Shown: one piece after another, positions 18,555 through 35,729 of the stretch | Numbering within the stretch: the first letter of the stretch is position 1 | Layout of the letters: every line of letters begins with the position of its first letter | Source of the DNA: an uncultured Acidimicrobiia bacterium | GTDB lineage: Bacteria; Actinomycetota; Acidimicrobiia; Spongiisociales; UBA5794 | NCBI GenBank assembly: GCA_963792405.1 | Contig: CAWBVU010000005.1 | Location: 355,668 to 419,667 of the forward strand | DNA length: 64,000 nt | Reading direction: 5' to 3' | Notes under the pieces: generated by a model | What the model was told of the DNA's origin: nothing | The model's input: the letters and a program-made list of their open reading frames with translations, nothing else | The model's database searches: none | Position numbers and translations under genes: made by a program

Positions 18555-19020
18555 GCGGCCAGTCCCCGCCCACGCGGAGACGACAGCGACGCAGAGAGGG
18601 CCTTCCTGCTTCGTCTCTCCCCGCGGGAGAGACGCGGAGCGCAGCGACGCAGAGAGGGCCGCAGTACTGACAGACGCCTCCCGCACCGCACTCCCCCCTC
18701 TGCCCTCCGGGCATCTCCCCCAAGGGGGAGAAGGAAGAGTGGAGCGAGCGCAGCGAGGCCTCCATGCTGTCTCTCCCCGCGGGAGAGACGCGGAGCGCAG
18801 CGACGCAGAGAGGGCCGCAGTACTGACAGACGCCTCCCGCACCGCACTCCCCCCTCTGCCCTCCGGGCATCTCCCCCAAAGGGGGAGAAGGAAGAGTGGA
18901 GCGAGCGCAGCGAGCCCAATACTGTCTCTCCCCGCGGGAGAGAGGACGCGGAGCGAAGCGACGCAGAGAGGGCCGCACCCTCACACACGCGGAGCGAAGC
19001 GACGCAGAGATCGCCGCGCA
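18555..19020. repeat. Composite hairpin repeat cluster A
   Basis: Alternating modules: H1 (GTCTCTCCCCGCGGGAGAGAC then GCGGAGCGAAGCGACGCAGAGAGGGCCGC), H2 (CCTCCCGCACCGCACTCCCCCCTCTGCCCTCCGGGCATCTCCCCCAAAGGGGGAGAAGGAAG) and linkers (GAGCGAGCGCAGCGAGC). Confidence 0.85.
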
Positions 19021-19027
19021 GCAGGGA

Positions 19028-19955
19028 TCAGGCGACCGGCCAGGTTTCGGCGACTTCGGGGGCGACTTCCTCGTGGGCACGCCTGGCGGCCCGGTCGGAG
19101 AGGTAGAGCCCGATCAGCACGAGGACCCCACCGATGATGATGCCCGGTTGGAGTTCCTCGTCGAGGAGGAGGAGCCCACCGCTGAGCACCATGAACGGGA
19201 CCATGTAGCCGATGAGCGACACGTTCGTCGCCGACACCTTCGTGAGCAGCCAGTACGAGAGCAGGAACGGCATGAAGGTGGCGAACACGGCCATCTCGAT
19301 CATCAGCCACCAACCCGCGGCGGAGACATCCGTCGGCAGCCCTTCCGTCACGAGCATGGCGACGACGAGCCAGATCGCGGCGATGGCGAACTGGAGGCCG
19401 GTGATCATGACCGGCTCGTACTCACCAGCGTGACGCTTGCCGAAGGCATTCGCGAACCCGATCGACACCACCGAGACGAGGCCGAGGACCCCTGCGACGA
19501 GAGGCCGTCCGCCCTCGCTGAGGCCCGAGTCCCCGGACAGTAGGAGGAACGCGACGCCGGAGAATGCGATGAACAGCGCGACGACCTTCGTCGCCGTCAG
19601 GGGCTCGTCGGGAAGCATGAAGTTGGCGAACACCGCCGTTGCGAGGGGGATGAGTGCTGCGATGAGGCCGACGAAGCCCGCCGATGCCTCGGCGTAGGCG
19701 AAGGTGAACAGCACGTACGGGATGGTCATGTTGAAGACCGCCTGCACCAGCCCGTACCCGAGGACGGTCCTCGACGGCAACGGTGTGCGCTGGACGATGA
19801 GGACGACCATCACCATCAGGGCGGCCAGCACGATGCGCACCCCGATGATGGTCCACTCGCCCACACCCTGGTCGAAGGCTGCCACGCGTCGCGATGCCGC
19901 CCGACGCCCATCCGAGTGCGGCGGCAACCATGGCGAGCCAGTAGATCGGGCGCAT
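19028..19955 (-). CDS. EamA/DMT-family transporter, frameshifted near 19885-19895
   Basis: TM1 (MRPIYWLAMVAAALGWASGGIATR) reads in one frame and the other nine TMs (ORF 19028..19927) in the +1 frame. This points to a 1-nt indel. Confidence 0.65.
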
Positions 19956-20014
19956 CAGGCGAGGCTACCGACACGGGTGCGCCGTGCGTTCCGGACACCC
20001 GGTGCTCCGCCCGA

Positions 20015-21313
20015 TCAGCTCTCGAGGTCGGGGTCCCATTCGTAGACGGGGCCGTCCTCCTCGTACTCGGGGACGCGGTCCTCGTCGCGGGTCATGATGC
20101 CCGACAGGCCCTCACCGAACTCGGTGCGTCCGGAGAGGAGGTCGCTGCCGTGGGTGACGACGAGCCGCCCGTACTTGCGGCGCAGCTCGTCCACCGAGGC
20201 GTCGAGGGCGCGGTACTCGATCTCCTTCGGGGTGCCACCCGTCGAGGTGGTGTCGTCGACTCCCATGGCGAGCTGCATCGGCTCCCCCACGGCGAGGCCC
20301 GAGGTGGAGATCCCGACGAGGGACGTCTCGTGCCTCGGGTACTCGTCGACGACCTTCTGCAGCAGCTTCGTGGCGATGTCCATGATCGCCCCGGTCGCGG
20401 CCGTCGGTGTGGGCATGGTCGCCGACCGGGTCACCGCCGACAGGTCGCCGAACCGCACGCGCACGGTCACGGTGCGCGCCGTGCGGTTCTTCGCCCGAAG
20501 CCGCTCGGCGACACGGTCGGTGAGACGTTGGAGGACGGGCACCAGCTCGTCCATCGTGCGGATCTTGGAGCGGATCGCGCTCTGGGCACCGACGGACTTC
20601 GCCCGCCGCTCCCGCGTCACGGGTCTGGGATCCTGGTTGTTCGCGAGGGCGTGGAGATGCCCTGCCGCCCCGGGGCCGAGCATGGCCGTGAGCGCATCGA
20701 GCGGCGTGTCGGCGATGTCCCCGATCGTCTCGAGCCCGTAGCTGCGGAGCTTGCGCTCCGTCACCGGCCCCACCCCCCACAGCAGCGACACGTTCAGGGG
20801 ATGGAGGAACGCCAGCTCCTCGCCCGGCTCGACGACGATCAGCCCGTCCGGCTTCGCCACCTGCGAGGCGATCTTCGACAGGAACTTGCGGGTCGAGGCC
20901 CCCACCGACACGGCGAGTCCCGTCTCGGTGCGCACCCTCTCCCGGATCGCCTCTGCGATCTCCCGCGGCGACCCGAAGAGGTGGACCGAGCCCGTGACGT
21001 CGAGGAACGCCTCGTCGATGGAGATGCCCTCGATGGCGGGCGTGAACGACTCGAAGATGGAGAACACCGTCCGCGAGTAGGCCGTGTAGGCGCCGAACGT
21101 GCCGTCCACGAGGATGAGCTGCGGGCACAGGGCCCTGGCGTCCACCATCCGCATGCCGCCGCGCACACCGAAGGCCCTCGCCTCGTAGGTGCACGACAGC
21201 ACCACGCCCGTGCCGACGGCAACGGGCTTGCCGGCAAGCGACGGATCCTCGAGCACCGCCACCGCGGCGTAGAACGCGTCGAGATCCGCATGCAGGATCC
21301 CCGGTATGTCCAT
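20015..21313 (-). CDS. dinB: DNA polymerase IV (Y-family)
   Basis: MDIPGILHADLDAFYAAVAVLEDPSLAGKPVAV, SIDEAFLDVTG and little-finger domain; 432 aa. Confidence 0.85.
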   Translation of the reverse strand: MDIPGILHADLDAFYAAVAVLEDPSLAGKPVAVGTGVVLSCTYEARAFGVRGGMRMVDARALCPQLILVDGTFGAYTAYSRTVFSIFESFTPAIEGISIDEAFLDVTGSVHLFGSPREIAEAIRERVRTETGLAVSVGASTRKFLSKIASQVAKPDGLIVVEPGEELAFLHPLNVSLLWGVGPVTERKLRSYGLETIGDIADTPLDALTAMLGPGAAGHLHALANNQDPRPVTRERRAKSVGAQSAIRSKIRTMDELVPVLQRLTDRVAERLRAKNRTARTVTVRVRFGDLSAVTRSATMPTPTAATGAIMDIATKLLQKVVDEYPRHETSLVGISTSGLAVGEPMQLAMGVDDTTSTGGTPKEIEYRALDASVDELRRKYGRLVVTHGSDLLSGRTEFGEGLSGIMTRDEDRVPEYEEDGPVYEWDPDLES

Positions 21314-21411
21314 GGCGCCATGGTGTCACACAGGTGCGACACGCGCCCGCGAAAAGGACTCCAGTCGGCTCCCGATCGGCGGCCTAGCGTCACGGGGGAA
21401 GGGAGGCACGA

Positions 21412-21792
21412 ATGGATTTCCAGATGATGCCGTCACTGCCCGCGTCCGACATCGGCCGCGCACGTGCGTGGTACGAAAGGGTGCTCGGTGTGACACCCGC
21501 CATGGAGGACACCGACGGATCACTCATGTACATGTCGGGCGACAGCGCGTTCATGGTCTACGAGTCCCAGTTCGCCGGCACCAACAAGGCGACCGCTGCA
21601 GGTGTCGTCGTCCGGGACTTCGACGCGGCAGCGGCGGCGTTGCGCGCCGCGGGCGTCGCGTTCGAGGACTACGACTTCGGCGAGGACCTCCGCACCGTCG
21701 ACGGTGTGATGACCGACGACGCCGGGAGGCGCATGGCGTGGTTCAAGGACTCGGAGGGCAACATCCTCGGCTTGGCCGAGAACCCGATGTAG
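21412..21792 (+). CDS. VOC/glyoxalase-family protein
   Basis: 126 aa with a glyoxalase/bleomycin-resistance fold pattern. Confidence 0.65.
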   Translation: MDFQMMPSLPASDIGRARAWYERVLGVTPAMEDTDGSLMYMSGDSAFMVYESQFAGTNKATAAGVVVRDFDAAAAALRAAGVAFEDYDFGEDLRTVDGVMTDDAGRRMAWFKDSEGNILGLAENPM

Positions 21793-21801
21793 CCCCCGCC
21801 C

Positions 21802-21990: not shown

Positions 21991-22029
21991 TCAGCCTCCG
22001 GCTGCCAGACACATCCTCGGTCGGCATGA

Positions 22030-22076: not shown

Positions 22077-22589
22077 ATGGACATCAGCGCTGTGTATCTC
22101 GACGCCTTCGGCCGTATCGAGGAGGACGTGGAACGGGCCGTCACCGGCCTCGACGGGGACGCCCTCGCCTTCCGGCCCGATCCGGACGCGAACTCGATCG
22201 GATGGCTCGTGTGGCACCTCACCAGGGTGCAGGACGACCACGTCTCCGAGATCGCCGGCCGCGACCAGGCCTACGTCGCCGATGGGTGGGCGGAGCGGCT
22301 CGGGCTGTCGCCAGACATCCACGACACCGGATACGGCCACACCTCCGACCAGGTCGCCGCCGTGCGGTTCGATGGCCCCGCCGACCTGCTCGCCTACCAC
22401 CGCGCCGTGGCCGGCCGCAGCCGCGAGTACCTCGAGACGGCGACGCCCGACGACCTCGACAGGATCATCGATGAACGATGGGACCCACCCGTGACCGTGG
22501 GTGTGCGGCTCGTCAGCGTCATCGACGACTCCCTCCAGCACGCCGGCCAGGCCAACTACGTCCGCGGCATCTGGGAACGCACCGCCTGA
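22077..22589 (+). CDS. DinB_2/DUF664 (mycothiol maleylpyruvate isomerase N-terminal-like) family protein
   Basis: WLVWHLTRVQDDH...H..D metal-binding pattern; 170 aa. Confidence 0.65.
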   Translation: MDISAVYLDAFGRIEEDVERAVTGLDGDALAFRPDPDANSIGWLVWHLTRVQDDHVSEIAGRDQAYVADGWAERLGLSPDIHDTGYGHTSDQVAAVRFDGPADLLAYHRAVAGRSREYLETATPDDLDRIIDERWDPPVTVGVRLVSVIDDSLQHAGQANYVRGIWERTA

Positions 22590-23150
22590 ACCCGCAGTAC
22601 CGAAGGAGGCCTCCCGCACCGCACTCCCCCCTCTGCCCTTCGGGCATCTCCCCCAAAGGGGAGAAGCGAAGAGAGGAGCGAGCGCAGCGAGCACCTTGGA
22701 TGTCTCTCCCCGCGGGAGAGACGCGGAGCGAAGCGACGCAGAGAGGGCCGCCCAACGATGAGGAGCGAGCGCAGCGAGCACCTTGGGATGTCTCTCCCCG
22801 CGGGAGAGACGCGGAGCGAAGCGACGCAGAGAGGGCCGCCCAAGGATGAGGAGCGAGCGCAGCGAGCACCTTGGATGTCTCTCCCCGCGGGAGAGACGCG
22901 GAGCGAAGCGACGCAGAGAGGGCCGCAGTACCGAAGGACGCCTCCCGCACCGCACTCCCCCCTCTGCCCTTCGGGCATCTCCCCCAAAGGGGGAGAGGAG
23001 CGAGCGCGGGCATCTCCCCCGGGGAGGGAGCAAAGCGGAGCGAGCGCCAGCGAGCACCATTGCTTCGTCTCTCCCCGCGGGAGAGACGCGGAGCGAAGCG
23101 ACGCAGAGAGGGCCGCTCCCTCGCAGACGAAGCGGTGCTGTGGGGAGCGG
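22590..23150. repeat. Composite hairpin repeat cluster B (includes ~63-bp tandem units x4)
   Basis: Same H1/H2/linker modules as cluster A. Positions 22670-22920 hold four tandem units (gaggagcgagcgcagcgagcaccttggatgtctctccccgcgggagagacgcggagcgaagcgacgcagagagggccgcccaa). Confidence 0.85.
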
Positions 23151-24294
23151 TCAGCCGGTGATGGTGGAGGCGATGGTCGTGCCGATCGCGACGTGGCCCT
23201 CGGGGTTGGGGTGGGGCCAGCCCGCCCACTTCTGGGTGCTGATCGGCTGACCACCGAGGTCGACCCAGACGACGTCGTCGCTCAGGCCCGCACGGATCGC
23301 CTCGTGGAGCTGGCCGAGGGCGAGGTTCATCTCGTCCTCGCACTCGCCGCCGACGGGTGACCACAGCGGTGCGAACCGTGTGCCGGCGAGCTGGTAGTAG
23401 CTCGTCCAGTAGATGTCGGCGTTGGTCCTCGAGGTGACCTCGTCGACGATCCGGCTGGTGGCGTCCGTGATGAATCCCTTGCGCTCGTCCAGGTTCCACT
23501 CCTCGTTCACGGCTCGCTGGCACACCTTCTTGTCGCCCGAGTCCGTGAATGAGAACAGCGTGTCCCTGGTGAGGCCGGTGATGACATCGACCCAGTTCGT
23601 CGAGTTGATGCCCGCCGTCATCACCACGACGTTCCACGTCGACGGGTCGGCGAGGCGGGCGATGTCGTCCACCTGGCTCGGGTGGCCGGCCGAACACGAG
23701 TCGGACCCGCCGTCGAGGACGTCACCGACCCCTGCGCCCGGGAAGGCGATGTTCACGTACCTGGGCGTCCACGCGGCGGGGAGCTGTGAGGCGACGGCCC
23801 GCTGCACGGTCGAACCGTACGAGTAGTCGTCGTCGCGGCAGACGGAGTCCTGGGTGAACCACTGGCGGGAGTAGCCGGAGGCGACCGAGTCGCCCGCGAC
23901 GATCACGTTCGGCACGCCCGGGGTGACACCCTCCCACGCGGTGACCCACTTCGACTCCCAGCCGTGGCGGTCCACGGCGCGCACCTCGAGGGTGGCCGCC
24001 GTCTCGGGGAGGGTCCGGGCGAACGACACCGTGGGGTTCACGACGGAGGTCGACACCGGCGTGCTCCCGTTCCATCGGTACTCGTAGCGGCGGATGCCGA
24101 GGTCCGTGTCGGCGTCGATGACGAGGTCGGCCTCGAGGAGGTCGTTGTGGCGCTGGGGGGAGACGAAGCTCGGCGGACACCACCACGGGACGGGTCTGCC
24201 CGTCGGGAAGGATCTCGGCAGGCAGGCGCACGGCAGCAACGGCAGGGCTGGCGAGCCCCATGATCAGGGCGGTGATGGCGATGGTGAGTACGCG
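23151..24294 (-). CDS. Secreted SGNH/GDSL hydrolase, frameshifted in a C6/G6 homopolymer (~24164-24169)
   Basis: Signal peptide VTRRVLTIAITALIMGLASPAVAA after GGAG plus a GTG start at 24294. The catalytic frame contains NVIVAGDSVASGY. The two frames join at ctcccccca. Confidence 0.6.
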
Positions 24295-24481: not shown

Positions 24482-26609
24482 ATGCGACCACCACGCATCC
24501 GACGACCACGGCTCTCCGACCTGCTCACCCTCGCCGTCTTCTCGATGATCCTCACCGCCGCGGTGCTCTACTCGCCCGGGTGGACCGTCGGGGGGAGAGC
24601 GGAGGCCACCGCCCCCGTCGACCTCGCCAACGTCGCTGCATCGCTCCAACCCTTCATCCCCAAGCCGGTCCTCGCGGCGTCCGTGCCCGCGGGTGCCCAC
24701 GGTGTGGGCCTGGTCGACACCGAGCAGGGCGTCTGGCACCTCCGCACCCGCGACGGCGACCCCGCCTCGTTCTTCTACGGCAATCCAGGCGACTACCCGT
24801 TCACGGGCGACTGGGACTGCAACGGCACCGACACGCCCGGCCTCTACCGCCAGTCCGACGGGTACGTGTACCTGCGCAACTCGAACACGCAGGGCCCGGG
24901 TGAGATCAAGTTCTACTTCGGCAATCCGGGCGACTTCCCGCTGTCTGGCGACTTCAACGGCGACGGCTGCGACACCCTCTCCCTGTACCGGCCGTCCGAG
25001 CAGCGGATCTATGTGATCAACACGCTCGGGTCGAACGACACCGGCCTCGGTGAGGCCGAGTACTCGTACATCTTCGGGAACCCCGGTGACAAGCCGTTCA
25101 CCGGCGACTTCAACGGCAACGGCATCACCACGGTCGGCCTGCACCGTGAGTCGACGGGCTTCATGTACTTCCGCAACACGAACACCCAGGGCGTGGCCGA
25201 CTACCAGTTCTACTTCGGCGACCCCGGCGACCGCCTCATCGCAGGCGATTGGACCGGTGCGGGCGAGGACTTCCCCGCCGTGTACCGGCCGTCGAACCGC
25301 ACCGTGTACATGCGGTTCTCCAACACGCAGGGCAATGCCGACGAGTTCTACCAGTGGGGCGAATCGCCCTACATCCCCGTGGCGGGGTTCTTCGGGCCGC
25401 TCGACAGCGGCGTGTCGGTGAGCGTCTCGGGCGCCCCGACCGAGCTCAAGTACGCCATCGAGTCCTTCTACCAGGACCAGCAGGCGGCCCCGCACATCCC
25501 CGAGGGGCTGCGCACCAACCTGCTCGGCCTCCGCGACTATCCGAAGGTGAAGATCGCCTCCGGTTCGGCCACCACCTCCACGGCGTACGGCAAGGGCGTG
25601 GCGGTGGCCACCGTGAACGGCGACACGTTGCTGGCGGTCACGGACAACGGCTGGGAGTGGCGCATCGTCGGGAGCGAATCCGTTCGGGCTGGGCCGCACC
25701 CTGTACTACGGCGGGAACGCCCGCCACGTGGCGATGATCGGCACCGACTGGCAGCAGTCCGGCTCCACATGGCCGACCGACGTGACCCGCACCAACGCCG
25801 ATTCGCTGCACCTCTACACGGTGAACCCGGTGGCGGGGGCGGGCGCCGTCTCGGGCTTCCCGCGCTCGACGTACATCACCACCCCGTTCGGCTACACGCG
25901 TGTCGCCAAGACCACGGTCGACGGCGGCCCGTCGAACACCGTCACCTCGCTCCGGATGGAGACGGGCCTCCCGGTGGAGGGCTACTTCCTCATCGGCATG
26001 GGCAGCTTCAACCCTGGCGCCCCTCCGGGGTTCTCGGACCTGGTCGACGCCTACGGCGGCTTCCCCTTCCTCGTGCCGTACGAGCCCCTCGGTGGCGTGC
26101 CGGCGGTGGGCGACACCTTCCTCAATGGCACCGAGGCGATCGCCTGGGCCCGTGAGCGCCAGAACTCCCCCCACGGCGGGTCGGACCGCACCCTCAACCA
26201 GGGTCAGATGATCAAGGCGGCGCTGGCGACGATCCAGCCGCTCGGGATGTCCCAGATCCCCAACCTGCTGTCCATCATGGACGGGTTCGTGTACACGGAC
26301 CTGTCGATCGACCAGGTCCTCACCTTTGCGGCCACCGTGTACACGGTCAACACCGGCGCGATGCCGACCATGACACCCCAGGACCTCATCAACTCGGGAC
26401 ATGTGGCGCCGAACAAGATCGTCCCGACGCACGGCCCGTACAACCAGAACCCCGGCACGCTGCCCAACGTGCTGATCAAGGGCTGCCTGTACACACCGGA
26501 CGGTGTCACCTTCGGCTACTCGCTCACCGCGCAGAACAAGGCGCTGTTCACCGACCTCGCCGACGGCGTCCTCGACACCGCACCCTGGATCTGTGACGAC
26601 GGCACCTAG
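24482..26609 (+). CDS. LCP (LytR-CpsA-Psr) family glycopolymer ligase with N-terminal TM anchor and FG-GAP-like repeats; frameshift ~25675
   Basis: TM anchor, then five FGNPGD...GDW/FDCNGTDT blades paralogous to the surface protein. The LCP domain reads in the +1 frame (25728..26609): FLIGMGSF...FLNGTEAIAWARERQ. Confidence 0.65.
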
Positions 26610-26663
26610 GCCCGCCACCAGCTGAGGCGGCCTACGCTATGCGCGCCTCATCGAAGGACGCCG

Positions 26664-27245
26664 ATGCGCTCGCTCGCCCTCATCCTCATGCTCATGCTCG
26701 TCACCGCCTGCACCCAGCAGGCGGACGACGACGTCACCGACGCCACCCTGACGACGACCTCCACAGCCGCGGGCGCCACGACGACCACCGGTGAATCGTC
26801 CACGACCACGACCGGCGGGACGACCACCACCACGACGCGCCCGTCGGGCGGCACGACCACCACCACCCGGGCGACGACGACGACCTCCTCGCCGTCGACG
26901 ACCACGACCACCATCCCCGCGGACAACCTCCCGCCCACCGTGGAGATCCTCGCCCCCGCCAACCTGTCCTCCCACACAGCCGCCTACGACGCAGCCCTCG
27001 GGGACTTCGGCACCTACCTGACGCTTCGAGCGACGGCGAGCGACCCCAACGGTGACCCCGTCGTGATCCGCTGGTCCGCCTCCACCGAGGGCGGACTCGG
27101 CACCGGCACCGAGATCACGGCGTGGTTCTCGACCAATGGCTCGGACGCCACCCAGCCCATCATCACCGCCACCGCCGTCGACCGGTGGGGCGTCACCTCC
27201 TCCGCCTCGGTCAACATCATCGTCTGGATCCCCTCCGACACCTAG
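26664..27245 (+). CDS. Lipoprotein with Thr-rich linker and Ig-like domain
   Basis: Signal peptide with lipobox LVTAC. 50% Thr linker. C-terminal beta-rich domain. Confidence 0.6.
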   Translation: MRSLALILMLMLVTACTQQADDDVTDATLTTTSTAAGATTTTGESSTTTTGGTTTTTTRPSGGTTTTTRATTTTSSPSTTTTTIPADNLPPTVEILAPANLSSHTAAYDAALGDFGTYLTLRATASDPNGDPVVIRWSASTEGGLGTGTEITAWFSTNGSDATQPIITATAVDRWGVTSSASVNIIVWIPSDT

Positions 27246-27535
27246 GCAGGAAGAGCGAGCACAGCGAGCCCTGCCTGTCTCTCCCCGCGGGAGAGACGCG
27301 GAGCGCAGCGACGCAGAGAGGGCCGCACCCTCGCAGACGCGGAGCGAAGCGACGCAGAGAGGGCTTCCTGCTTTGTCTCTCCCCGCGGGAGAGACGCGGA
27401 GCGAAGCGACGCAGAGAGGGCCGCAGTTCTGAGACCTCTCGAAGGACGCCTCCCGCACCGCACTCCCCCCTCTGCCCTCCGGGCATCTCCCCCAAAGGGG
27501 AGAAGGAAGCACAGGGGTCTTGGATCGGATGTGTG
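27244..27535. repeat. Composite hairpin repeat cluster C
   Basis: H1-H1-H2 modules, immediately upstream of the DUF559 gene. Confidence 0.85.
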
Positions 27536-27554
27536 ATCTTGGTACTCGTGGGCC

Positions 27555-27905
27555 ATGCACGATCGAGAACAGCTGCGCAGCTTCGCGAAGGAAATGCGGT
27601 CGGATCCGACCCTCGGCGAGCGGATCTTGTGGGACGAGCTCCGAGCGAGACGACTCGGCGTGAAGGTGCGTCGCCAGCATCCCGTCGGCCCGTTCATCCC
27701 CGACTTCGTCTGCTTCGCACGCCGCCTGGTCATCGAGGTCGACGGCGACTCCCATGAGGATCCGGAGCGGGATGCACGCCGCGATCAGTGGTTCCGGGAC
27801 AACGGCTGGCGTGTCCTGCGGTTCACAGACGACGAGGTGATCGACGAGCTCGACATGGTCCTCGACACCATCTGGCACGCCCTCCACGCCAACGAGGAGA
27901 AGTGA
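27555..27905 (+). CDS. DUF559 endonuclease-domain protein (Vsr/PD-(D/E)xK-like)
   Basis: 116 aa with the DUF559 hallmark ...RQHPVGPFIPDFVCF...LVIEVDGDSHE...WRVLRF. Confidence 0.75.
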   Translation: MHDREQLRSFAKEMRSDPTLGERILWDELRARRLGVKVRRQHPVGPFIPDFVCFARRLVIEVDGDSHEDPERDARRDQWFRDNGWRVLRFTDDEVIDELDMVLDTIWHALHANEEK

Positions 27906-28455
27906 GCGAGCGCAGCGAGCACCGCCCAAGGATGAGGAGTGAGCGCAGCGAGCACCTTGGATGTCTCTCCCCGCGGGAGAGACGCGGAGCGAAGCGACGC
28001 AGAGAGGGCCGCAGTACTGGAAGCGCCGCTCCACAGACGCCTCCCGCGTCGTAGCTCCCCCCTCTGCCCTTCGGGCATCTCCCCCAAAGGGGGAGAAGGA
28101 GAAGGAGATAGACGCCTCCCGCACCGCACTCCCCCCTCTGCCCTTCGGGCATCTCCCCCAAAGGGGGAGAGGGAAGCATGGGTGCGGGCTCTCCCCGCAA
28201 AGGGGAGAGAGAGCGATGGCGAGCGTGCCCCGCAGGGAGAAGACGCGTTCGCGCATCTCGCCCCCAAGGAAGGATGAGCGAGCGAAGCGAGCACCATGCC
28301 GTCTCTCCCCGCGGGAGAGACGCGGAGCGAAGCGACGCAGAGAGGGCCGCAGTACTGGAAGCGCCTCCCACAGACGCCTCCCCGCTCTGCCCTCGGGCAT
28401 CTCCCCCAAAGGGGAGAAGGAAACAGGGTTCGGGCATCTCCCCCAAGAGGGGAGA
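27905..28455. repeat. Composite hairpin repeat cluster D
   Basis: H1/H2/linker modules. Starts at the stop codon of the DUF559 gene and runs to the RBS of the next gene. Confidence 0.85.
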
Positions 28456-28461
28456 AGTAGC

Positions 28462-28869
28462 ATGAGTCGACCGAGTGAGAGGCACGGGATGAGGCTCAAT
28501 GCGATCGGGATCGTGTGTGCGGATGTCGAGGCGTCGCTGCGGTTCTACCGTCTGGTGGGCGTGCCGTTCGGCGAGTTCGATCCCGACAACGGGCACTACG
28601 ACGCCGACCTCGGCGGCTTCCGGCTCATGCTCGACTCGCATGAGGTGATGGAGGCATTCAACCCGCATTTCTCCCCGCCGAAGGGCAACGACCGCATCAG
28701 CCTCGCGGTGGAGTGCGCATCCCCCGCAGCGGTCGACGAGGCCCACGCCGCGGTCGTCGATGCGGGGTTCGTGTCGGTACGGGAGCCCTTCGACGCCTTC
28801 TGGGGACAGCGGTATGCGACCGTGGCGGACCCCGACGGCAACCACGTGGACCTCTACGCCGCCATGTGA
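28462..28869 (+). CDS. VOC/glyoxalase-family protein
   Basis: MSRPSERHGMRLNAIGIVCADVEASLRFYRLVG. GGAGAAG RBS. The real start is inside ORF 27961..28869. Confidence 0.7.
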   Translation: MSRPSERHGMRLNAIGIVCADVEASLRFYRLVGVPFGEFDPDNGHYDADLGGFRLMLDSHEVMEAFNPHFSPPKGNDRISLAVECASPAAVDEAHAAVVDAGFVSVREPFDAFWGQRYATVADPDGNHVDLYAAM

Positions 28870-32262: not shown

Positions 32263-32308
32263 GGCCACGATGGTAGGGCTCCGATTCCCGACCACACCGG
32301 CTGGCACG

Positions 32309-32773
32309 TCATGCCGGATCGGCGGCGGTCACCTCGCGCAGGAACCCGTGGAGGTCCGAGTCGCCGAGGTCGCCTGCACCGTCGCGGTGGCGCACGATCG
32401 CCGCGAAGGCGAGGAAGAGGACGATCCCGATCACCACGCCGATCACGTTGAGGATCACGTCGTTGATGTCCGCAGTGCGGGGGGCGGCGGGCACGACCTG
32501 GAGAAGGAGCAGCTGGAGGCACTCGACGGCGAGGAACAGTCCTGCCCCGTATGCGAGGACACGCCACGGTGAGGGTCGCCTGATCACGAAGAAGGCCAGG
32601 AACCCGAACGGCACGCCGAGGAACACGTTCGGGATCGCCTGCTCCCGGTTGATCGGCGGCCCGTCGAGGAAGTTCCGGAACGGCACCAGGTTGAACCTCG
32701 TCGCGTTCGCCGGAGCCGACCCGTCGATCGGGATGGGGAACATCGTCGCCTGCACCACGAGCACCAGGTACAC
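32309..32773 (-). CDS. VanZ-family membrane protein
   Basis: NLVPFRN...VFLGVPFGFLAFF...AVECLQLLL...DINDVILNVIGVVIG. The VanZ assignment is from recall of the family pattern. Confidence 0.6.
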   Translation of the reverse strand: MYLVLVVQATMFPIPIDGSAPANATRFNLVPFRNFLDGPPINREQAIPNVFLGVPFGFLAFFVIRRPSPWRVLAYGAGLFLAVECLQLLLLQVVPAAPRTADINDVILNVIGVVIGIVLFLAFAAIVRHRDGAGDLGDSDLHGFLREVTAADPA

Positions 32774-32919
32774 GGCGAACAGCGCGGTGAAGACCGCCCG
32801 AACCCTGCGCTCAGGCCGTGCGCCGCATGTCCACGGCGAGCCACACCGCCACCCCGGCGATCGCCACCAATGAGAACACCTGCCCCCGAATCATCCCCCC
32901 AGCCTGCCACATCCCTGTT

Positions 32920-33380
32920 TCCTTCTCCCCCTCCAAGTCGGTGCTCGCTCCGCTCGCTCCCCCTATCCCGTTCTGATCGGTGCTCGCTCCGCTCGCTCAT
33001 CCCTCTCAGTCCCCTCTTCCTTCTCCCCCTTTGGGGGAGATGCCCGAAGGGCAGAGGGGGGAGCCGCGATGCGGCGCTTCGTCCTCTCTGCGTGCTCCCC
33101 CTTCGGGGGAGAGACGAAGCAGGGAACCCTCTCTGCGTCGCTTCGCTCCGCGTCTCTCCCGCGGGGAGAGACGAAGCAGGGAGCCCTCTCTGCGTCGCTT
33201 CGCTCCGCGTCTCTCCCGCGGGGAGAGACGAATCGGTGCTCGCTTCGCTCGCTCATCCCTCTCTCTTCCCTGCGGGGGAGAAGCCCCAGCTCCACTTCCC
33301 TCTCCCCTTTGGGGGAGATGCCCGAAGGGCAGAGGGGGGAGCCGCGACGCGGGAGACACCCTCCGAGCGACGGCCGCTCG
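32920..33380. repeat. Composite hairpin repeat cluster E (inverted orientation)
   Basis: Reverse complements of H2 (cttccttctccccctttgggggagatgcccgaagggcagagggggg) and H1 (gtctctcccgcggggagagac). Confidence 0.85.
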
Positions 33381-33403
33381 CGCACGGCGCCTACGCTCGA
33401 GCC

Positions 33404-34273
33404 ATGACACGACCCACCTTCCTGATCACCGGAGCGACCGGGTTCCTCGGGCGGCGGGTCGTCCCGCGTGCGCTGACCGAAGGCCGCGTCCTCGCCGCCA
33501 CGAGCCGTCCCGAGGCCGCCGTCACGGGCGGCGAGAAGGTGGTCCTCGACGTCACCGACCGCAACGCCACCCTCGGCACCGTCGAACGCGTCGCACCCGA
33601 CGTGATCCTCCACCTCGCCGCGATCAACCCCGGGCAGGGCGACGACGAGACGATGCGGCGTGTGAACGTCGACGGGTCACGTCACGTCGCGGAGGCCGCC
33701 GCTGCCAGCGGGAGCACGCCTGGTGGCCGTGTCCACCGACGTCCTCCACGACGGCACCGCAGGCCCCTACCCGGACGATGCGACGCCAACGCCCCTCGAC
33801 ATCTACGGTCGCTCGAAGGCAGAAGGAGAAGCCGCCGTCCTCGATGGACTGCCATCGGCGCTCGTGGTGCGCACCTCACTCATGTACGCGGTCGACGAGA
33901 TGGACCGCGGCACCGCAGGCTTCGCCCGTCGCCTCGCTGCAGGTGAGCCGCTTCGCCTCTTCACCGACGTGTGGCGCAACCCCGTCTGGGTCGAGACCCT
34001 CGCCGACGCCCTCGTCCGTCTCGCCGCCACCGAGGCGTCCGGCATCCTCAACGTCGCGGGCGCCGAGGCCATGACCAGGGAGACCTACGCCCTCGCGCTG
34101 CTCGACTACTGGGGTATCGACGACCTGGGCCGCTACGAGCCCGTCCGTGCCGCAGACGTCTCCGACCACGATCCCCCTCGACGTCCGCCTCGACTCCACC
34201 CGGCGCCGAAGCCCTCCTCGGGATGACCTTCCCCGGCGTCACCGAGGTCCTCGCCTCCCACCCTCGCTCGTGA
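33404..34273 (+). CDS. NAD(P)-dependent reductase, dTDP-4-dehydrorhamnose reductase (RmlD)-like SDR; about 3 frameshifts
   Basis: MTRPTFLITGATGFLG. After an extra G near 33712 the STD..YGRSK catalytic block (ARLVAVSTDVLHDG...YGRSKAEGE) reads in the +1 frame. The C-terminus (IPLDVRLDST, then AEALLGMTFPG) again changes frame near 34175 and 34200. Confidence 0.55.
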
Positions 34274-34330
34274 CGCGGAGGAGGGGAACGGACGACCGTT
34301 CCCCTCCCACTCGTTCGCTGGTTCGTCCGA

Positions 34331-35155
34331 CTAGCCCATGAAGTCGTAGATGAAGTCCAGCACGTTCTGACGGTCGAGGCGGAAGACGCCTCCGGTCCCG
34401 GCACAGTTCCCGTTGATCCCGAACGACGTCACACCCGCGACGACCTGCGAATCGCCGAGGAAGTTGGGTCCGCCCGAATCGCCGAAGCACGTCCCGCCGG
34501 TCGAGGCGTTGTTCGACAGGAGGAGCGAGAAGTCGCCGACGTAGCCCGTGTTGATCTGGTCGAGCTTCGGATAGGCGATGTACCGAACACGCTCGGACTC
34601 CACGAAGACCGGGTTGATGAGCTGGAGCCCATATCCGACGGCGGTGAAGTACGTGTCGGCCTGTCCCCGCTTCGTGGCGAGCGCATCGAGCTGGTCCACC
34701 TTCGGCAGCTTCCCGTAGCTGGCGCCCCTGGGCAGCTTCACGGGCTTCTGCAACTCGATCATCCCCACGTCGTGCAGGTAGAAGGCGGCCGACGTGTACA
34801 GCGGGTGGGTTGCCCACCGCTTCGCCTCGACGCTGTTCTTGCCTCCGCCGTAGGGGTAGTTGTTGTCGCCGTTTTCCACGTCGGACTCGGTGAAGATGCG
34901 CATGCCGCTGAACTCACCGGGTTCACCCGTGCAGTGTCCGGCCGTCAGCACGATGGTCGGTGACACGAGGGTCCCCGAGCAACGGTAGGCGGGCTCGCCT
35001 GCTTCCTCCATGAGGATGAGCACCACCTCCGGGTGTCGGTCACCCGCCGGTTCCCCGTCGGTGATCGCCCCTGCCGGCACGGCGACCGTGATCGCCATCA
35101 CCAGCGCTCCGAGCAGGATCGCAAGTCTCTTCATACGTCGCTCCTCAGTTGGCAT
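34331..35155 (-). CDS. Secreted trypsin-like S1 serine protease
   Basis: Signal peptide, then TAGHC (His), D and GDSGGP (Ser) catalytic triad motifs. Confidence 0.8.
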   Translation of the reverse strand: MPTEERRMKRLAILLGALVMAITVAVPAGAITDGEPAGDRHPEVVLILMEEAGEPAYRCSGTLVSPTIVLTAGHCTGEPGEFSGMRIFTESDVENGDNNYPYGGGKNSVEAKRWATHPLYTSAAFYLHDVGMIELQKPVKLPRGASYGKLPKVDQLDALATKRGQADTYFTAVGYGLQLINPVFVESERVRYIAYPKLDQINTGYVGDFSLLLSNNASTGGTCFGDSGGPNFLGDSQVVAGVTSFGINGNCAGTGGVFRLDRQNVLDFIYDFMG

Positions 35156-35214
35156 GTGCCCAGGGGTCCTCCGTGGGCCACGCCACGCTACCGACTACGC
35201 AGCGCATATGCATC

Positions 35215-35712
35215 GTGACACGAACGCCAATGGGCCGGCTCCCCTCTGCCCTCCGGGCACCTCCCCAAAGGGGAGAGGGAAGCAGAGGTACGGGCACCTC
35301 CCCCAGAAGCAAGGATGAGCGAGCGCAGCGAGCCCAATGCTGTCTCTCCCCGCGGGAGAGACGCGGAGCGAAGCGACGCAGAGAGGGCCGCACCCTCGCA
35401 GACGCGGAGCGAAGCGACGCAGAGAGGGCCGCAGTACCGACGACCTCTGGAAGGACGCCTCCCGCACCCCACTCCCCCCTCTGCCCTCCGGGCATCTCCC
35501 CCAAAGGGGAGAAGGAAGCAAGGTGCGGGCACCTCCCGCGAGGAAGGATGAGCGAGCGCAGCGAGCCCAATGCTGTCTCTCCCCGCGGGAGAGACGCGGA
35601 GCGAAGCGACGCAGAGAGGGCCGCACCCTCGCAGACGCGGAGCGAAGCGACGCAGAGAGGGCCGCACCCTCGCAGACGCGGAGCGAAGCGACGCAGAGAG
35701 GGCCGCGGTGCT
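35215..35712. repeat. Composite hairpin repeat cluster F (its 3' end forms the left edge of the duplicated lasso cassette)
   Basis: H2-linker-H1-H1 modules repeated twice. The last 72 bp are also found at the duplication junction (40969-41040). Confidence 0.85.
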
Positions 35713-35729
35713 CCCGCTACGCTGATCGT

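What the first reader, a model, noticed from the sequence alone, without database searches (positions are those of the whole stretch)
18555..35712. Abundant family of composite GC-rich hairpin repeats at seven intergenic sites in 64 kb
Clusters lie at 18555-19020, 22590-23150, 27244-27535, 27905-28455, 32920-33380 (inverted), 35215-35712 and 40969-41040. All are built from the same modules. H1 is GTCTCTCCCCGCGGGAGAGAC (8-bp stem, 5-nt loop) followed by GCGGAGCGAAGCGACGCAGAGAGGGCCGC. H2 is ...CTCTGCCCTCCGGGCATCTCCCCCAAAGGGGGAGAAGGAAG, with a TCTCCCCC/GGGGGAGA stem. There is also a GAGCGAGCGCAGCGAGC linker. The modules are arranged as local tandem arrays of about 63-130 bp units. They are strictly intergenic, occur in both orientations, and together make up about 5% of the window. 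This resembles REP/BIME or MITE-like elements. I do not recognise it as a described family. Reading across the arrays inflates several spurious ORFs (e.g. 26637..28499, 22519..23697, 17607..18842).
Basis: seen in the sequence. Interest (0 to 1): 0.7.

Follow-up and report, generated by a model that had tools for sequence, protein, structure and literature searches.

The report
Triplex-hairpin repeats flanking a DUF559 nuclease
The GC-rich repeats are real and are a new variant of the long-known but unexplained 'BoxC / intrastrand-triplex' repeats of bacteria; here, as in many unrelated bacteria, they surround a small DUF559 nuclease gene, which points to what may spread them.

Summary
H1 occurs 15 times, the following module 22 times, and about 0 copies are expected by chance. 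All copies lie in intergenic DNA between 18.5 and 41 kb.

- Each module is a hairpin with a pyrimidine 5' arm and a purine 3' arm, followed by a box that is the exact mirror image of the purine arm. That is the signature of BoxC / PIT / TM intrastrand-triplex repeats (Holder 2015). Here the second loop is long and structured.
- Clusters 3 and 4 flank a 116-aa DUF559 (Vsr-like) endonuclease gene.
- "Site 7" is the duplicated tail of cluster 6, inside a 5.3-kb tandem duplication.

In 80 DUF559 loci from unrelated bacteria, such hairpins are 20 times enriched next to the gene. They usually form inverted terminal modules, with mirror boxes that co-vary with the hairpin arm. E. coli ycjD also sits next to a BoxC copy.

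A sister genome carries repeats+DUF559 at a site that is empty here. A close relative has much shorter arrays.

Best reading (about 0.5): these are ORF-less derivatives of a DUF559-associated selfish element, comparable to the REP/RAYT partnership, and they destabilise the region. The mechanism is inferred, not shown.

The parts
18555..19020 (+). Cluster 1. Order of modules: degenerate B, then A-B, P-H2, L, A-B, P-H2, L, A-B, C, B'. Period is 155-156 bp. It lies between the EamA transporter gene (19028-19927, -) and the cation-efflux gene (17607 to about 18520, -).
22590..23150 (+). Cluster 2. It fills the whole gap between the stop codons of two convergent genes, DinB/MST-like (22077-22589, +) and a GDSL lipase (23151-24239, -). 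Order: P-H2, three L-A-B units with an 88-bp period, P-H2, an extra hairpin, L-A-B.
27244..27535 (+). Cluster 3, directly upstream of the DUF559 gene. Order: L, A-B, C, B', A-B, P-H2, then a degenerate purine box GCACAGGGG and the leader GGTCTTGGATCGG.
27555..27905 (+). DUF559 gene (116 aa), a Vsr-like PD-(D/E)XK endonuclease embedded between clusters 3 and 4. The stop codon overlaps the first L module.
   Evidence: PF04480 E=1e-31, 109 bits against a cut-off of 20.6. PDB 3hrl E=1e-14 and 3r3p E=0.09. Columns D50, E61, D63 and H67 are invariant in the alignment of 16 DUF559 proteins. dN/dS is 0.15 against the 94%-identical relative.
27904..28457 (+). Cluster 4, directly downstream of DUF559. 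Order: L, L, A-B, P-H2, P-H2, variant hairpins, L, A-B, degenerate P-H2, hairpin. It ends 32 bp before the glyoxalase gene (28489-28869, +).
32920..33380 (-). Cluster 5, the only inverted cluster. It lies between the starts of two divergent genes, VanZ (32309-32773, -) and an epimerase (33404, +).
35215..35712 (+). Cluster 6, between divergent gene starts: a trypsin-like protease (34331-35155, -) and an NTP_transf_5 gene (35730, +). It contains a 233-bp repeat and ends in a 41-bp B-C-B-C-B array (35592-35706).
40969..41040 (+). 'Site 7'. This is the duplicated 3' end of cluster 6 (B-C-B), fused into a methyltransferase ORF. It marks the junction of the tandem duplication and is not an independent insertion.
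22702..22747 (+). Block 1 is GTCTCTCCC, loop 1 is CGC, block 2 is GGGAGAGAC (22714-22722). Loop 2 is GCGGAGCGAAGCGACG, a mini-hairpin around GCGAAGC. Block 3 is CAGAGAGGG (22739-22747), the exact mirror of block 2.
   Evidence: sequence; fold; mirror rule
18850..18888 (-). Block 1 is TCTCCCCC, loop 1 is TTT, block 2 is GGGGGAGA, loop 2 is TGCCCGGAGGGC (mini-hairpin), block 3 is AGAGGGGG, the exact mirror of block 2. On the plus strand it reads pyrimidine box, then hairpin.
   Evidence: sequence
18769..18923 (+). One composite unit: TM-I, a 30-nt spacer, inverted TM-II, then L. That is two unlike terminal modules facing each other with no ORF between them.
35642..46290 (.). Two copies of a 5.33-kb tandem duplication (97% identity) whose left breakpoint lies inside the B-C-B array of cluster 6.

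Best explanation
The repeats are a lineage-specific, amplified variant of the BoxC / PIT / TM class of 'intrastrand triplex' repeats.

Each module is a hairpin with a pyrimidine 5' arm and a purine 3' arm, followed by a purine box that mirrors the 3' arm. As single-stranded DNA the box can fold back onto the hairpin as a third strand (G*G-C, A*A-T, T*A-T). In this family the linker to the third strand is itself a 12-16-nt mini-hairpin.

Two module variants, TM-I (H1 plus the next module) and TM-II (H2), face each other. This is the same arrangement as the terminal inverted modules that bracket DUF559 (Vsr-like) endonuclease genes in many bacteria. I read the window's units as ORF-less derivatives of such a DUF559 element, kept homogeneous and spread in trans by the DUF559 nuclease encoded at 27555-27905. 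The relationship would resemble REP/REPIN repeats and their single-copy RAYT gene.

Once present, arrays grow and shrink by slippage and unequal recombination between modules, and they provoke indels, gene-content changes and duplications around them.

What is shown: the module anatomy, the mirror rule, the DUF559 association, and the insertion and length polymorphism. What is inferred: triplex formation by this variant, nuclease recognition of the structure, and trans-mobilisation.
For: 1. Anatomy. Block 3 is the exact mirror of block 2 in both module types, 9/9 and 8/8 positions.

2. Link to DUF559 within this clade. The window's DUF559 gene lies between clusters 3 and 4. In the sister genome MFD09779.bin.1.312 a 69%-identical DUF559 gene sits at a different place. 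There it is again flanked on both sides by the same repeats, as a 1062-bp block between two convergent genes that are 3 bp apart in the window. In that genome the homology of eight ORF-less units to the gene's 3' flank begins at or within a few bases of its stop codon.

3. Generality. The 80 DUF559 loci were found only through a catalytic-core peptide pattern.
   - Pyrimidine-first hairpins occur at 3.93 per kb within 200 bp of the gene and 0.20 per kb further away. Purine-first controls are 0.16 and 0.10, and mixed hairpins are 3.48 and 2.63.
   - 62 of 80 loci have such a hairpin, and 39 have one on both sides.
   - The upstream flank aligned to the reverse complement of the downstream flank beats all 20 shuffles in 63 of 79 loci, with arms of 30-100 nt.
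   - The box matches the mirror of the arm better than a direct copy in 66 cases and worse in 11 (p=2e-9). Own-locus match is 0.870 against 0.789+-0.007 for permuted loci.
   - The box lies on the ORF-proximal side only in 71 hairpins and on the distal side only in 28.

4. Co-variation of end type with protein. The closest DUF559 proteins (L042 at 59%, L035 at 61%) have the same subtype as the window: hairpin GTCTCCCCC, a second hairpin, and box GCAGAGGGGG.

5. E. coli. TMECO no. 9 lies in the fabI-ycjD spacer, about 170 bp from ycjD, the DUF559 gene annotated there. The ycjD coding end itself runs into CCCTCTCCC...GAGGGGG.

6. Homogeneity and turnover. The H1 hairpin is identical in most of the 70 copies anchored on the neighbouring module, in the window plus six MAGs. 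Genes in those genomes are only 70-80% identical at nucleotide level. A relative whose DUF559 is 94% identical has 118 bp where the window has 583 bp, and lacks a 98-bp module block upstream.

7. The nuclease looks functional, with invariant catalytic columns and dN/dS of 0.15.

8. None of the 30 scanned ORFs in the window is a transposase, integrase or RAYT.

9. DUF559 bounded by such hairpins is inserted in frame in MetH at two different positions, and in a TsaB-like gene. That is the behaviour of a selfish insert.
Against: - In the window and its close relative the ORF is not bracketed in the canonical way. Its upstream neighbour is TM-II and its downstream neighbours are L-L-TM-I pointing away. 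No pyrimidine box follows the stop codon.
- Only 2 of the 33 repeat-bearing 8-kb tiles from the MAGs carry DUF559.
- Identical DUF559 proteins are always found in one genomic context across many samples, so the gene itself is not hopping on short time scales.
- No target-site duplication or clean excision footprint was seen.
- A PD-(D/E)XK hydrolase cannot perform strand transfer by itself, so any spread must go through host recombination or repair.
- The 41-bp and 88-bp tandem periods and the 98-bp indel bounded by direct GAGAGGGCCGC repeats need only slippage or unequal crossing-over.
- Sampled E. coli O157 genomes show no ycjD match yet keep about 12 TMECO copies.
- Holder et al. saw triplex formation only in single strands in vitro, not in duplex DNA and not by in vivo DMS footprinting.
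- The association could mean that DUF559 genes target or persist at such motifs, rather than mobilise them.
Confidence: 0.5

Rival explanations
1. These are passive, structure-prone DNA. BoxC/TM-type modules arise and expand only through replication slippage, unequal recombination and error-prone repair at hairpin or triplex obstacles. DUF559 is either a host repair nuclease that deals with such structures, or a small selfish or accessory gene that tends to land and survive in these unstable intergenic spots. In this reading the repeats are its target or neighbourhood, not its cargo.
For: - Holder et al. link TMECO to local instability and found no mobility genes near them.
- The tandem periods of 41, 57, 88 and 233 bp and the indels bounded by direct module repeats fit slippage.
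- A 5.3-kb duplication breaks inside an array.
- The DUF559 gene is single-context within species.
- Sampled E. coli O157 genomes keep about 12 TMECO without a ycjD match.
- The non-canonical placement of the ORF in the window.
Against: - Slippage alone cannot carry near-identical modules to many separate intergenic regions, nor keep them more conserved than genes across species.
- It does not explain why two unlike module types pair in inverted orientation around the ORF in unrelated phyla, with the box on the ORF side 71 times against 28.
- It does not explain why module subtype tracks DUF559 similarity.
Confidence: 0.27
2. They are classical REP/BIME-type elements (REPINs) mobilised by a RAYT (IS200/IS605-like Y1 transposase) encoded elsewhere in the genome. 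The DUF559 neighbour is coincidental.
For: They are short GC-rich palindromes in mosaic intergenic clusters, mostly in one orientation.
Against: - None of the 30 ORFs scanned in the window, nor the extra genes of the sister contig, looks like a Y1 transposase.
- The DUF559 association recurs in 62 of 80 unrelated loci and in E. coli.
- The mirror-box design is not a REP feature.
Confidence: 0.06
3. They are functional RNA elements: small RNAs of the whalefall-1 type, mRNA stabilisers, attenuators or terminators, kept by selection on the transcripts of neighbouring genes.
For: - Seven of the 8 sub-threshold Rfam hits in 18-36 kb are to whalefall-1, and its consensus has the same hairpin, insert and AGGGUGAGG design.
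- Weinberg et al. rated whalefall-1 as certainly an RNA.
- The pyrimidine-motif version could form in RNA (introduction of PMC4666352).
Against: - Scores are 18-23 bits against a gathering score of 37.
- The clusters sit after genes, between convergent genes and between divergent gene starts, so there is no consistent position relative to transcripts.
- No T-tails follow the hairpins and there is no excess of terminator-like sites.
- PIT elements showed no promoter or terminator activity in earlier work cited by Holder et al..
- The purine-motif triple helix implied by the mirror rule is stated not to form in RNA.
- Array length differs between close relatives.
Confidence: 0.1
4. It is a CRISPR array, or a real protein-coding repeat.
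For: Only the superficial regular spacing and the long ORFs that read through the arrays.
Against: - The sequences between repeats are themselves repeated modules, not unique spacers.
- The clusters are dispersed over seven places.
- No cas genes appear among the scanned ORFs.
- The read-through ORFs overlap real flanking genes in other frames, and their translations are low-complexity.
Confidence: 0.01

Closest known systems
BoxC / PIT elements / TM-ECO intrastrand triplex motifs (Bergler 1992; Hoyne and Maher 2000; Holder et al. 2015, PMC4666352)
   Same: - The three-block design is the same: pyrimidine block, loop, purine block, loop, purine block that mirrors the second.
- They are strictly intergenic, multicopy and highly conserved between copies.
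- They occur singly or as inverted pairs of two unlike types (type A with type B in E. coli, TM-I with TM-II here).
- They are associated with local rearrangement.
   Different: - The block sequences differ: GTCTCTCCC/GGGAGAGAC/CAGAGAGGG and TCTCCCCC/GGGGGAGA/AGAGGGGG, against CCCTCNCCC/GGGNGAGGG/GGGNGAGGG.
- Loop 2 is a 12-16-nt mini-hairpin instead of 3 nt. That lies outside the 1-6-nt loops of the ITxF search, so this variant would have been missed.
- The modules form arrays of up to about five per intergenic region, with an extra linker module L.
- The host is an uncultured Acidimicrobiia lineage; TMECO was reported in Proteobacteria.
- The published work found no associated gene. Here a DUF559 nuclease gene is associated.
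Rfam RF01762 whalefall-1 RNA motif (Weinberg et al. 2010, PMC2864571)
   Same: The consensus GUAUCuCuCCUuGGGGaGaGAC, then a 23-nt insert, then AGgGuGAGGAC, has the same order of hairpin, inserted second element and G-rich box. It is nearly the same first hairpin as H1. It is the only Rfam family that repeatedly hits the modules.
   Different: - Hits reach only 18-23 bits against a gathering score of 37, so the modules are not members by Rfam's criterion.
- Whalefall-1 is described as an RNA of unknown function from one metagenome.
- No link to DUF559 or to triplex DNA is recorded for it.
REP / BIME repeats and their RAYT transposases (REPIN-RAYT systems)
   Same: On the working analogy: a single-copy, stably located nuclease-type gene is flanked by inverted copies of a structured repeat, and that repeat is also scattered ORF-less, singly, in inverted pairs and in mosaic clusters through intergenic DNA.
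   Different: - The gene is a PD-(D/E)XK Vsr-like hydrolase of 116 aa, not an HUH Y1 transposase.
- The repeat has a mirror box (triplex signature), which REPs lack.
- No catalytic route for strand transfer is known for such a nuclease.
Vsr endonuclease, I-Bth0305I homing endonuclease (PDB 3r3p) and the DUF559 protein of Neisseria (PDB 3hrl); E. coli YcjD
   Same: The window protein is a clear PF04480 member, with E=1e-14 to 3hrl. The clade VSR/DUF559/DUF2726 includes a group I intron homing endonuclease.
   Different: - No cytosine methyltransferase partner was seen among the scanned ORFs next to it, as a Vsr would have.
- It is not inside an intron or intein.
- No biochemical activity is known for any stand-alone DUF559 protein.
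MITEs, and Rickettsia palindromic elements (own knowledge for the latter)
   Same: They are small, ORF-less, bounded by inverted terminal modules that match the ends of an ORF-carrying relative, and show presence/absence polymorphism. DUF559 with its hairpins also occurs as in-frame inserts in conserved genes, as RPEs do.
   Different: No target-site duplication was found. No transposase is present. Much of the copy-number change is local tandem expansion.

Membership tests
Intrastrand triplex motif (BoxC / PIT / TM; ITxF definition) | Three consecutive blocks on one strand, with block 2 complementary to block 1 and block 3 obeying the third-strand code for block 2 (mirror repeat: G over G, A or T over A). 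| tested here: met
   TM-I is GTCTCTCCC / GGGAGAGAC / CAGAGAGGG, a 9/9 mirror. TM-II on the minus strand is TCTCCCCC / GGGGGAGA / AGAGGGGG, an 8/8 mirror. The rule was validated on 114 arms from other loci.
   Loop 1 is 3 nt and fits. Loop 2 is 16 nt in TM-I and 12 nt in TM-II, each a predicted mini-hairpin.
TM-ECO (the E. coli BoxC consensus) | The pattern CCCTCNCCC N3-6 GGGNGAGGG N3 GGGNGAGGG. | tested here: not met
   The block sequences and loop 2 differ, so the modules are not TMECO copies.
Intrastrand triplex motif (BoxC / PIT / TM) | Intergenic, multicopy, with inverted pairs made of two unlike types. | tested here: met
   All clusters are intergenic. TM-I is followed by inverted TM-II in clusters 1-4 and 6, matching the type A + type B pairs of E. 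coli.
Intrastrand triplex motif (BoxC / PIT / TM) | The single strand actually folds into a triple helix (CD/NMR). | not testable with these tools
   This was shown only for TMECO oligonucleotides by Holder et al.. ViennaRNA does not model triplexes.
Rfam RF01762 whalefall-1 | Covariance-model score at or above the gathering score of 37 bits. | tested here: not met
   The best score is 23.3 bits. Seven hits fall between 18.8 and 23.3 bits on TM-II modules.
REP / REPIN-RAYT system | A Y1 (IS200/IS605-like) RAYT gene flanked by the repeats. | tested here: inconclusive
   None of the 30 Pfam-scanned ORFs of the window is a Y1 transposase. The extra genes in the sister contig look like an ABC transporter from their translations, which were not Pfam-scanned. 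The rest of the genome is not available.
MITE | Small ORF-less unit with terminal inverted repeats matching an ORF-carrying element. | tested here: met
   The unit 18769-18923 is TM-I + spacer + inverted TM-II. The same two module types flank DUF559 in the sister genome, and there the homology of the ORF-less units starts at or within a few bases of the stop codon.
MITE | Target-site duplication and a transposase able to act in trans. | tested here: inconclusive
   No duplication was recognisable at the one filled/empty pair, because the gene ends have diverged too far. DUF559 is a hydrolase, not a known transposase.
CRISPR array | Identical repeats separated by unique spacers, usually with cas genes. 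| tested here: not met
   The intervening sequences are themselves repeated modules. No cas genes were found.
DUF559 (PF04480), Vsr-like PD-(D/E)XK nuclease | Pfam gathering score, and conserved acidic/His catalytic columns. | tested here: met
   109.3 bits against 20.6. D50, E61, D63 and H67 are invariant in 16 sequences. 3hrl E=1e-14.
Homing-endonuclease-type selfish gene | Presence/absence at orthologous sites between related genomes. | tested here: met
   There is a 1062-bp repeats+DUF559 block in the sister genome where the window has a 3-bp spacer. Conversely, the window's copy lies in a segment absent from that contig.
Homing-endonuclease-type selfish gene | The nuclease cleaves the empty site or a defined recognition structure. 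| not testable with these tools
   This needs biochemistry.

The most novel reading that the evidence does not exclude
BoxC / PIT / TM 'intrastrand triplex' repeats have been orphan elements of bacterial genomes since 1992. On this reading they are the terminal modules and ORF-less derivatives of a very widespread family of selfish elements whose protein is the DUF559 (YcjD, Vsr-like) nuclease. This would be a REP/RAYT-like partnership built on a PD-(D/E)XK hydrolase that recognises a hairpin-triplex DNA structure. The Acidimicrobiia arrays in this window would be an unusually amplified case, and Rfam's whalefall-1 would be another member.
Probability: 0.45. Interest if true: 0.9.

Novelty: new variant of a known kind. 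Interest (0 to 1): 0.72.

Why it matters
Two long-standing unknowns meet here.

BoxC/PIT/TM repeats are abundant in E. coli, Enterobacter, cyanobacteria, Neisseria and others. They form triplexes in vitro and mark unstable loci. Nobody has known how they arise or spread, and the 2015 survey explicitly found no associated mobility gene.

DUF559 is one of the commonest bacterial domains of unknown function, and E. coli has a copy (ycjD).

A reproducible physical association between the two turns both into testable questions. The association includes an inverted-terminal arrangement, mirror boxes that co-vary with the hairpin arm, and end types that follow protein similarity. The first question is whether YcjD/DUF559 binds or cuts the hairpin-triplex. 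The second is whether it controls repeat copy number and the instability around the repeats.

For genome annotation, the result explains spurious ORFs, odd Pro/Gly/Glu-rich tails on DUF559 proteins and, probably, assembly breaks in high-GC MAGs. It also shows that triplex-type repeats with long structured loops escape existing triplex finders.

If the association is only target preference, it still identifies a new insertion niche and a driver of local gene turnover. In this window that turnover includes gene-content differences and a 5.3-kb duplication.

Tried and rejected
- **CRISPR.** Rejected, because the 'spacers' are repeated modules.
- **tRNA, tmRNA or a known RNA family.** No tRNAs were found. 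There was no Rfam hit at gathering level in the window. Nineteen other DUF559 loci gave only two weak microRNA-model matches with E below 0.5, and fourteen more gave only scattered weak matches.
- **Intrinsic terminators or promoters.** There is no excess over shuffles and no T-tails follow the hairpins.
- **Coding repeats.** The read-through ORFs are artefacts of high GC.
- **Integron attC-like cassette boundaries.** Considered because gene content differs at repeat junctions. Dropped because genes lie in both orientations, no integrase was found, and the module design is different.
- **Alternative Watson-Crick pairing of the G-box with the hairpin's 5' arm.** This is equivalent to the box being a direct copy of the 3' arm. 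It loses to the mirror relation, 11 to 66.
- **G-box as a Shine-Dalgarno sequence.** It cannot explain the inverted copy downstream of the ORF.
- **Within-family covariation.** Uninformative. H1 is almost invariant across genomes, with only one compensatory variant, GTCTCTCCTCGCAGGAGAGAC.
- **Folding z-scores.** They are modest, -1.6 to -2.7 for single modules, as expected for GC-rich DNA, and were not used as evidence.
- **Multi-copy DUF559 genes.** I looked for identical proteins in several contexts. Both proteins tested have a single context.
- **E. coli ycjD presence against TMECO number.** There is a trend only, and it is confounded by phylogeny.
- **Target-site duplications at the filled/empty site.** The gene ends are too diverged to tell.
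- **Literature.** Searches for DUF559 or ycjD with repeats, hairpins, or Vsr plus homing found nothing on this association.

Full report

Yes. The 21-nt H1 string occurs at 15 sites, 14 exact and one with a single mismatch. Thirteen are on the plus strand and two on the minus strand, against 0.03 expected from dinucleotide shuffles. The 29-nt module that follows it occurs 22 times with at most 3 mismatches, with 0 expected. The linker occurs 14 times. The H2 string occurs 4 times with at most 3 mismatches, and about 12 times when indels are allowed.

A 155-nt composite unit finds matches only in seven stretches between 18584 and 41033, and nothing in 1-18 kb or 41-64 kb. The matches cover 2.0 kb, and the cluster spans total about 2.9 kb, or 4.5% of the window. 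Tandem Repeats Finder sees local periods of 41, 57, 74, 88 and 233 bp.

The window has 60-73% G+C, which generates many long spurious ORFs. Third-position GC and Pfam identify the real genes. All clusters lie between them:
- Cluster 1 lies between two same-strand genes.
- Cluster 2 exactly fills the gap between two convergent stop codons.
- Clusters 5 and 6 lie between divergent gene starts.

**2.

(a) The 350-bp gap between clusters 3 and 4 is a gene, 27555-27905. It encodes a 116-aa DUF559 protein (PF04480, E=1e-31). Its TGA overlaps the first linker module. It matches the solved DUF559 protein 3hrl (E=1e-14) and, weakly, the catalytic domain of the homing endonuclease I-Bth0305I, 3r3p. A published classification puts VSR, DUF559 and that homing endonuclease in one PD-(D/E)XK clade (PMC3424549).

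(b) 'Site 7' is the copied tail of cluster 6. Positions 35642-40968 and 40969-46290 are a 5331-bp tandem duplication at 97% identity. Its left breakpoint lies inside the B-C-B array, and the junction truncates a methyltransferase ORF.

(c) The modules have a hidden regularity, described in section 5.

**3. Where else the family occurs**

An exact 25-mer from the commonest module was found in 33 stretches of the genome collection. All come from six uncultured Acidimicrobiia MAGs.

The window comes from a different species. Its genes are 70-80% identical in nucleotides to MFD09779.bin.1.312, yet repeat stretches reach 80-94%. Seventy copies of H1 were found in the window and the MAG loci by anchoring on the neighbouring module, which does not select on H1 itself. 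Most of them are identical. So the repeats are more conserved than the genes around them.

Four adjacent 8-kb tiles of one MAG contig reconstruct 32 kb that is syntenic with window 12.9-44.7 kb. I call this reconstruction S. S has about ten clusters, all in the same orientation. Gene content differs at the repeat-bearing junctions:
- Window 24.2-28.3 kb and the DinB-like gene are absent from S.
- S has an extra 4.9 kb at the cluster 1 site. Its two long ORFs look like an ABC-transporter ATPase and permease from their translations, which I did not scan against Pfam.

**4. The DUF559 gene travels with the repeats**

S carries a DUF559 gene that is 69% identical in protein, but at a non-orthologous place. 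It lies between a gene whose C-terminus suggests a low-molecular-weight phosphatase (not Pfam-tested) and a GHMP-kinase gene. In S these two genes are separated by 1062 bp, made of a repeat array, the DUF559 gene and a second repeat array. In the window their stop codons are 3 bp apart.

A metagenome contig whose DUF559 is 94% identical to the window's has the gene at the window's locus, with much shorter arrays. It has one unit upstream instead of the window's longer array. It has 118 bp downstream instead of 583 bp. dN/dS between the two genes is 0.15.

A 61%-identical homologue in another organism sits between IMPDH and a tRNA synthetase gene. It is flanked by inverted copies of a recognisably related module.

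**5. Generalisation and the mirror rule**

Eighty further DUF559 loci were retrieved from metagenomes purely through a catalytic-core peptide pattern. They are 40-59% identical to the window protein and come from contigs of 32-70% G+C.

*Hairpin enrichment.* Perfect hairpins with a pyrimidine 5' arm, such as CCCTCTCCC, CCCTCCCCC or CCTTCCCCC, occur at 3.93 per kb within 200 bp of the DUF559 match and 0.20 per kb beyond 400 bp. Purine-first hairpins are a strand-symmetric control and give 0.16 and 0.10. Mixed hairpins give 3.48 and 2.63. Sixty-two of 80 loci have at least one such hairpin, and 39 have them on both sides.

*Inverted flanks.* The upstream flank aligned to the reverse complement of the downstream flank beats every one of 20 shuffles in 63 of 79 loci. 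The arms are 30-100 nt long.

*Shared architecture.* Lining up 116 arms shows a common design: hairpin 1, then either a 3-nt linker or a second small hairpin (often around GCGAAGC), then a G-rich box next to the ORF.

*Mirror relation.* The box is the mirror image of the hairpin's purine arm, reversed but not complemented, with T allowed opposite A.
- For 108 asymmetric arms the mirror fits better than a direct copy in 66, worse in 11 and equally in 31 (Wilcoxon p=2e-9).
- Forty-two arms have a perfect mirror box, against 9 with a perfect direct copy.
- The own-locus match is 0.870, against 0.789+-0.007 when arms and flanks are permuted between loci.
- The box lies on the ORF-proximal side only in 71 hairpins, on the distal side only in 28, and on both sides in 16.

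*The window's modules.* They obey the rule exactly.
- H1's 3' arm GGGAGAGAC is followed, after the 16-nt mini-hairpin GCGGAGCGAAGCGACG, by CAGAGAGGG.
- On the minus strand, H2's arm GGGGGAGA is followed, after TGCCCGGAGGGC, by AGAGGGGG.

So H1+next module (TM-I) and H2 (TM-II) are two variants of one design in opposite orientation. A composite unit is therefore TM-I, a 30-nt spacer, then inverted TM-II. That is the arrangement that brackets DUF559 genes elsewhere, but without the ORF. In S, the homology between eight ORF-less units and the DUF559 3' flank starts at or within a few bases of the stop codon.

**6. Comparison with what is known**

A mirror purine repeat next to a hairpin is the signature of an intramolecular purine-motif triplex (own knowledge). 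A text search for the consensus strings led to Holder et al. 2015 (PMC4666352). That paper describes this kind of element as BoxC (1990s), PIT elements (Hoyne and Maher 2000) and TM/TMECO, with consensus CCCTCNCCC N3-6 GGGNGAGGG N3 GGGNGAGGG. Its main findings are as follows:
- There are 23 copies in E. coli K-12, all intergenic.
- Five occur as inverted pairs, and each pair combines a type A with a type B motif.
- The isolated strand forms a stable triplex by CD and NMR, but the duplex does not, and in vivo DMS footprinting did not detect one.
- The motifs are associated with strain-to-strain rearrangement.
- The authors state that they never found mobility functions nearby. The paper does not mention ycjD or any endonuclease.

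TMECO no. 9 (1,351,204-1,351,239) lies in the fabI-ycjD spacer, about 170 bp from the end of ycjD, the DUF559 gene annotated there. The ycjD reading frame itself ends in CCCTCTCCCtgaaagagcGAGGGGG.

That locus is polymorphic. About 3350 of 5426 complete E. coli genomes have TMECO+ycjD between fabI and sapF. A genome lacking them that I inspected has an RND efflux operon there and no such motif.

In a spread sample, ycjD-positive genomes had 12-27 matching places. Eleven of 20 ycjD-negative chromosomes had 4 or fewer, but O157-type strains had about 12. This is suggestive only, and it is confounded by phylogeny.

Rfam's whalefall-1 has the same order of parts and is the only family that repeatedly hits the window's modules. 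The hits are well below threshold, at 18-23 bits against 37. Other DUF559 flanks hit no bacterial RNA family.

I found no paper linking DUF559 or ycjD to these repeats. The held library is incomplete, so prior description cannot be excluded.

**7. How it most likely works**

*Shown:*
- The three-block anatomy.
- The association of such modules with DUF559 genes in inverted terminal arrangement across phyla.
- Subtype similarity between the window's modules and those of its closest DUF559 relatives.
- Insertion and array-length polymorphism.
- A selectively maintained nuclease gene.
- No other mobility gene among 30 scanned ORFs.

*Inferred:*
- The modules fold, at least transiently as single strands during replication or repair, into hairpin-triplex structures.
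- The DUF559 nuclease recognises them.
- The resulting nicks or breaks are repaired from other copies. This spreads and homogenises ORF-less units, as a homing-like or REP/RAYT-like process.
- Slippage and unequal exchange then expand and contract the arrays and cause flanking rearrangements.

I put this at about 0.5.

The main rival, at about 0.27, is that the repeats are passive unstable DNA and DUF559 is either a repair nuclease or a gene that prefers such sites. Several observations favour that rival:
- The ORF is not canonically bracketed in the window.
- The gene has a single genomic context within species.
- No target-site duplication was seen.
- O157 strains keep the motif without ycjD.
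- Triplex formation has not been detected in vivo.

An RNA function (0.1) and a RAYT-driven REP family (0.06) are less likely. The clusters have no consistent position relative to transcripts, they show no terminator features, and no Y1 transposase was found.

**8. Verdict**

The finding is real and its description is largely accurate. The sequence family is new, restricted so far to uncultured Acidimicrobiia, and it is a new variant of a known kind of repeat. Its long structured second loop would escape the published triplex finder.

There is a statistically strong and, as far as I could find, unreported link between BoxC/TM-type repeats and DUF559 nuclease genes. That link makes the origin of these repeats and the function of DUF559 directly testable.

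Noticed in passing
window 35642-46290: A 5331-bp tandem duplication (97% identity) carrying an NTP_transf_5 gene and a Transglut_core3 + asparagine-synthase fusion that looks like lasso-peptide maturation. The first copy of the NTP_transf_5 gene (35730-36740) ends in a frameshift relative to the second copy (41057-42196). The junction truncates a methyltransferase ORF (40273-41052).
   Followed up: partly
window 8756-9859, inside ORF 7013-10186 (-): A 321-bp unit repeated 3.4 times (96% matches) inside a 1057-aa protein with Calx-beta, PKD and fn3 domains. This is a coding tandem repeat in a probable surface protein. A 76%-identical stretch of the same ORF (7164-7717) matches 24704-25254.
   Followed up: no
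window 33404-34226: The NAD-dependent epimerase gene downstream of cluster 5 changes frame: one ORF runs from 33404 to 33946 and another from 33666 to 34226. It is either a pseudogene or an assembly indel.
   Followed up: no
window 58000-64000: G+C falls from about 0.70 (36-46 kb) to 0.60-0.63. Polysaccharide-synthesis genes lie nearby (50874-52748, 54479-54889).
   Followed up: no
L043 2627-5890, L053 2663-5800, L059 674-4876, L052 3602-4690: In low-GC metagenome contigs the DUF559 domain is inserted in frame inside methionine synthase MetH at two different positions. One is between the B12-binding cap and the B12-binding domain, and the other is inside the activation domain. It is also inserted inside a TsaB/TsaD-like protein. 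Hairpins of the same pyrimidine-first type lie at one or both edges of the inserts, and no intein domains were detected.
   Followed up: partly
L122 (E. coli K-12 1,350,000-1,352,600) and L123 (APEC E19019): Between fabI and sapF, E. coli genomes carry either a BoxC/TMECO copy plus ycjD (about 62% of 5426 genomes) or something else. In the one genome inspected that lacks them, the interval holds an RND efflux operon and no such motif. Downstream of ycjD in K-12 there is also a remnant second copy of the ycjD 3' end.
   Followed up: partly
window 22624-22667, 27463-27506, 33298-33341, 35472-35515 and others: The H2 modules give repeated sub-threshold hits to Rfam whalefall-1, an orphan RNA motif known only from a whale-fall metagenome. 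Its consensus has the same hairpin, insert and G-box order, so whalefall-1 may itself be a triplex-type repeat.
   Followed up: partly
window 18555-35712 and the syntenic contig S (L004+L022+L028+L017): Six of seven clusters in the window and all of about ten clusters in the sister contig point the same way, while GC skew is negative across the whole window. This may be a strand bias relative to replication.
   Followed up: no
window 35592-35706, 27298-27367, 18948-19017: Second-hairpin + purine-box modules occur in 41-bp tandem arrays without the first hairpin. They have no duplex for the box to bind. They are probably slippage products, but this is unexplained.
   Followed up: no
L034 668-745: In the close relative, the H1 hairpin downstream of DUF559 is extended to an 18-bp perfect stem (GCACCGCTCTGTCTCTCC...GGAGAGACAGAGCGGTGC) that draws in part of the linker module.
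   Followed up: no
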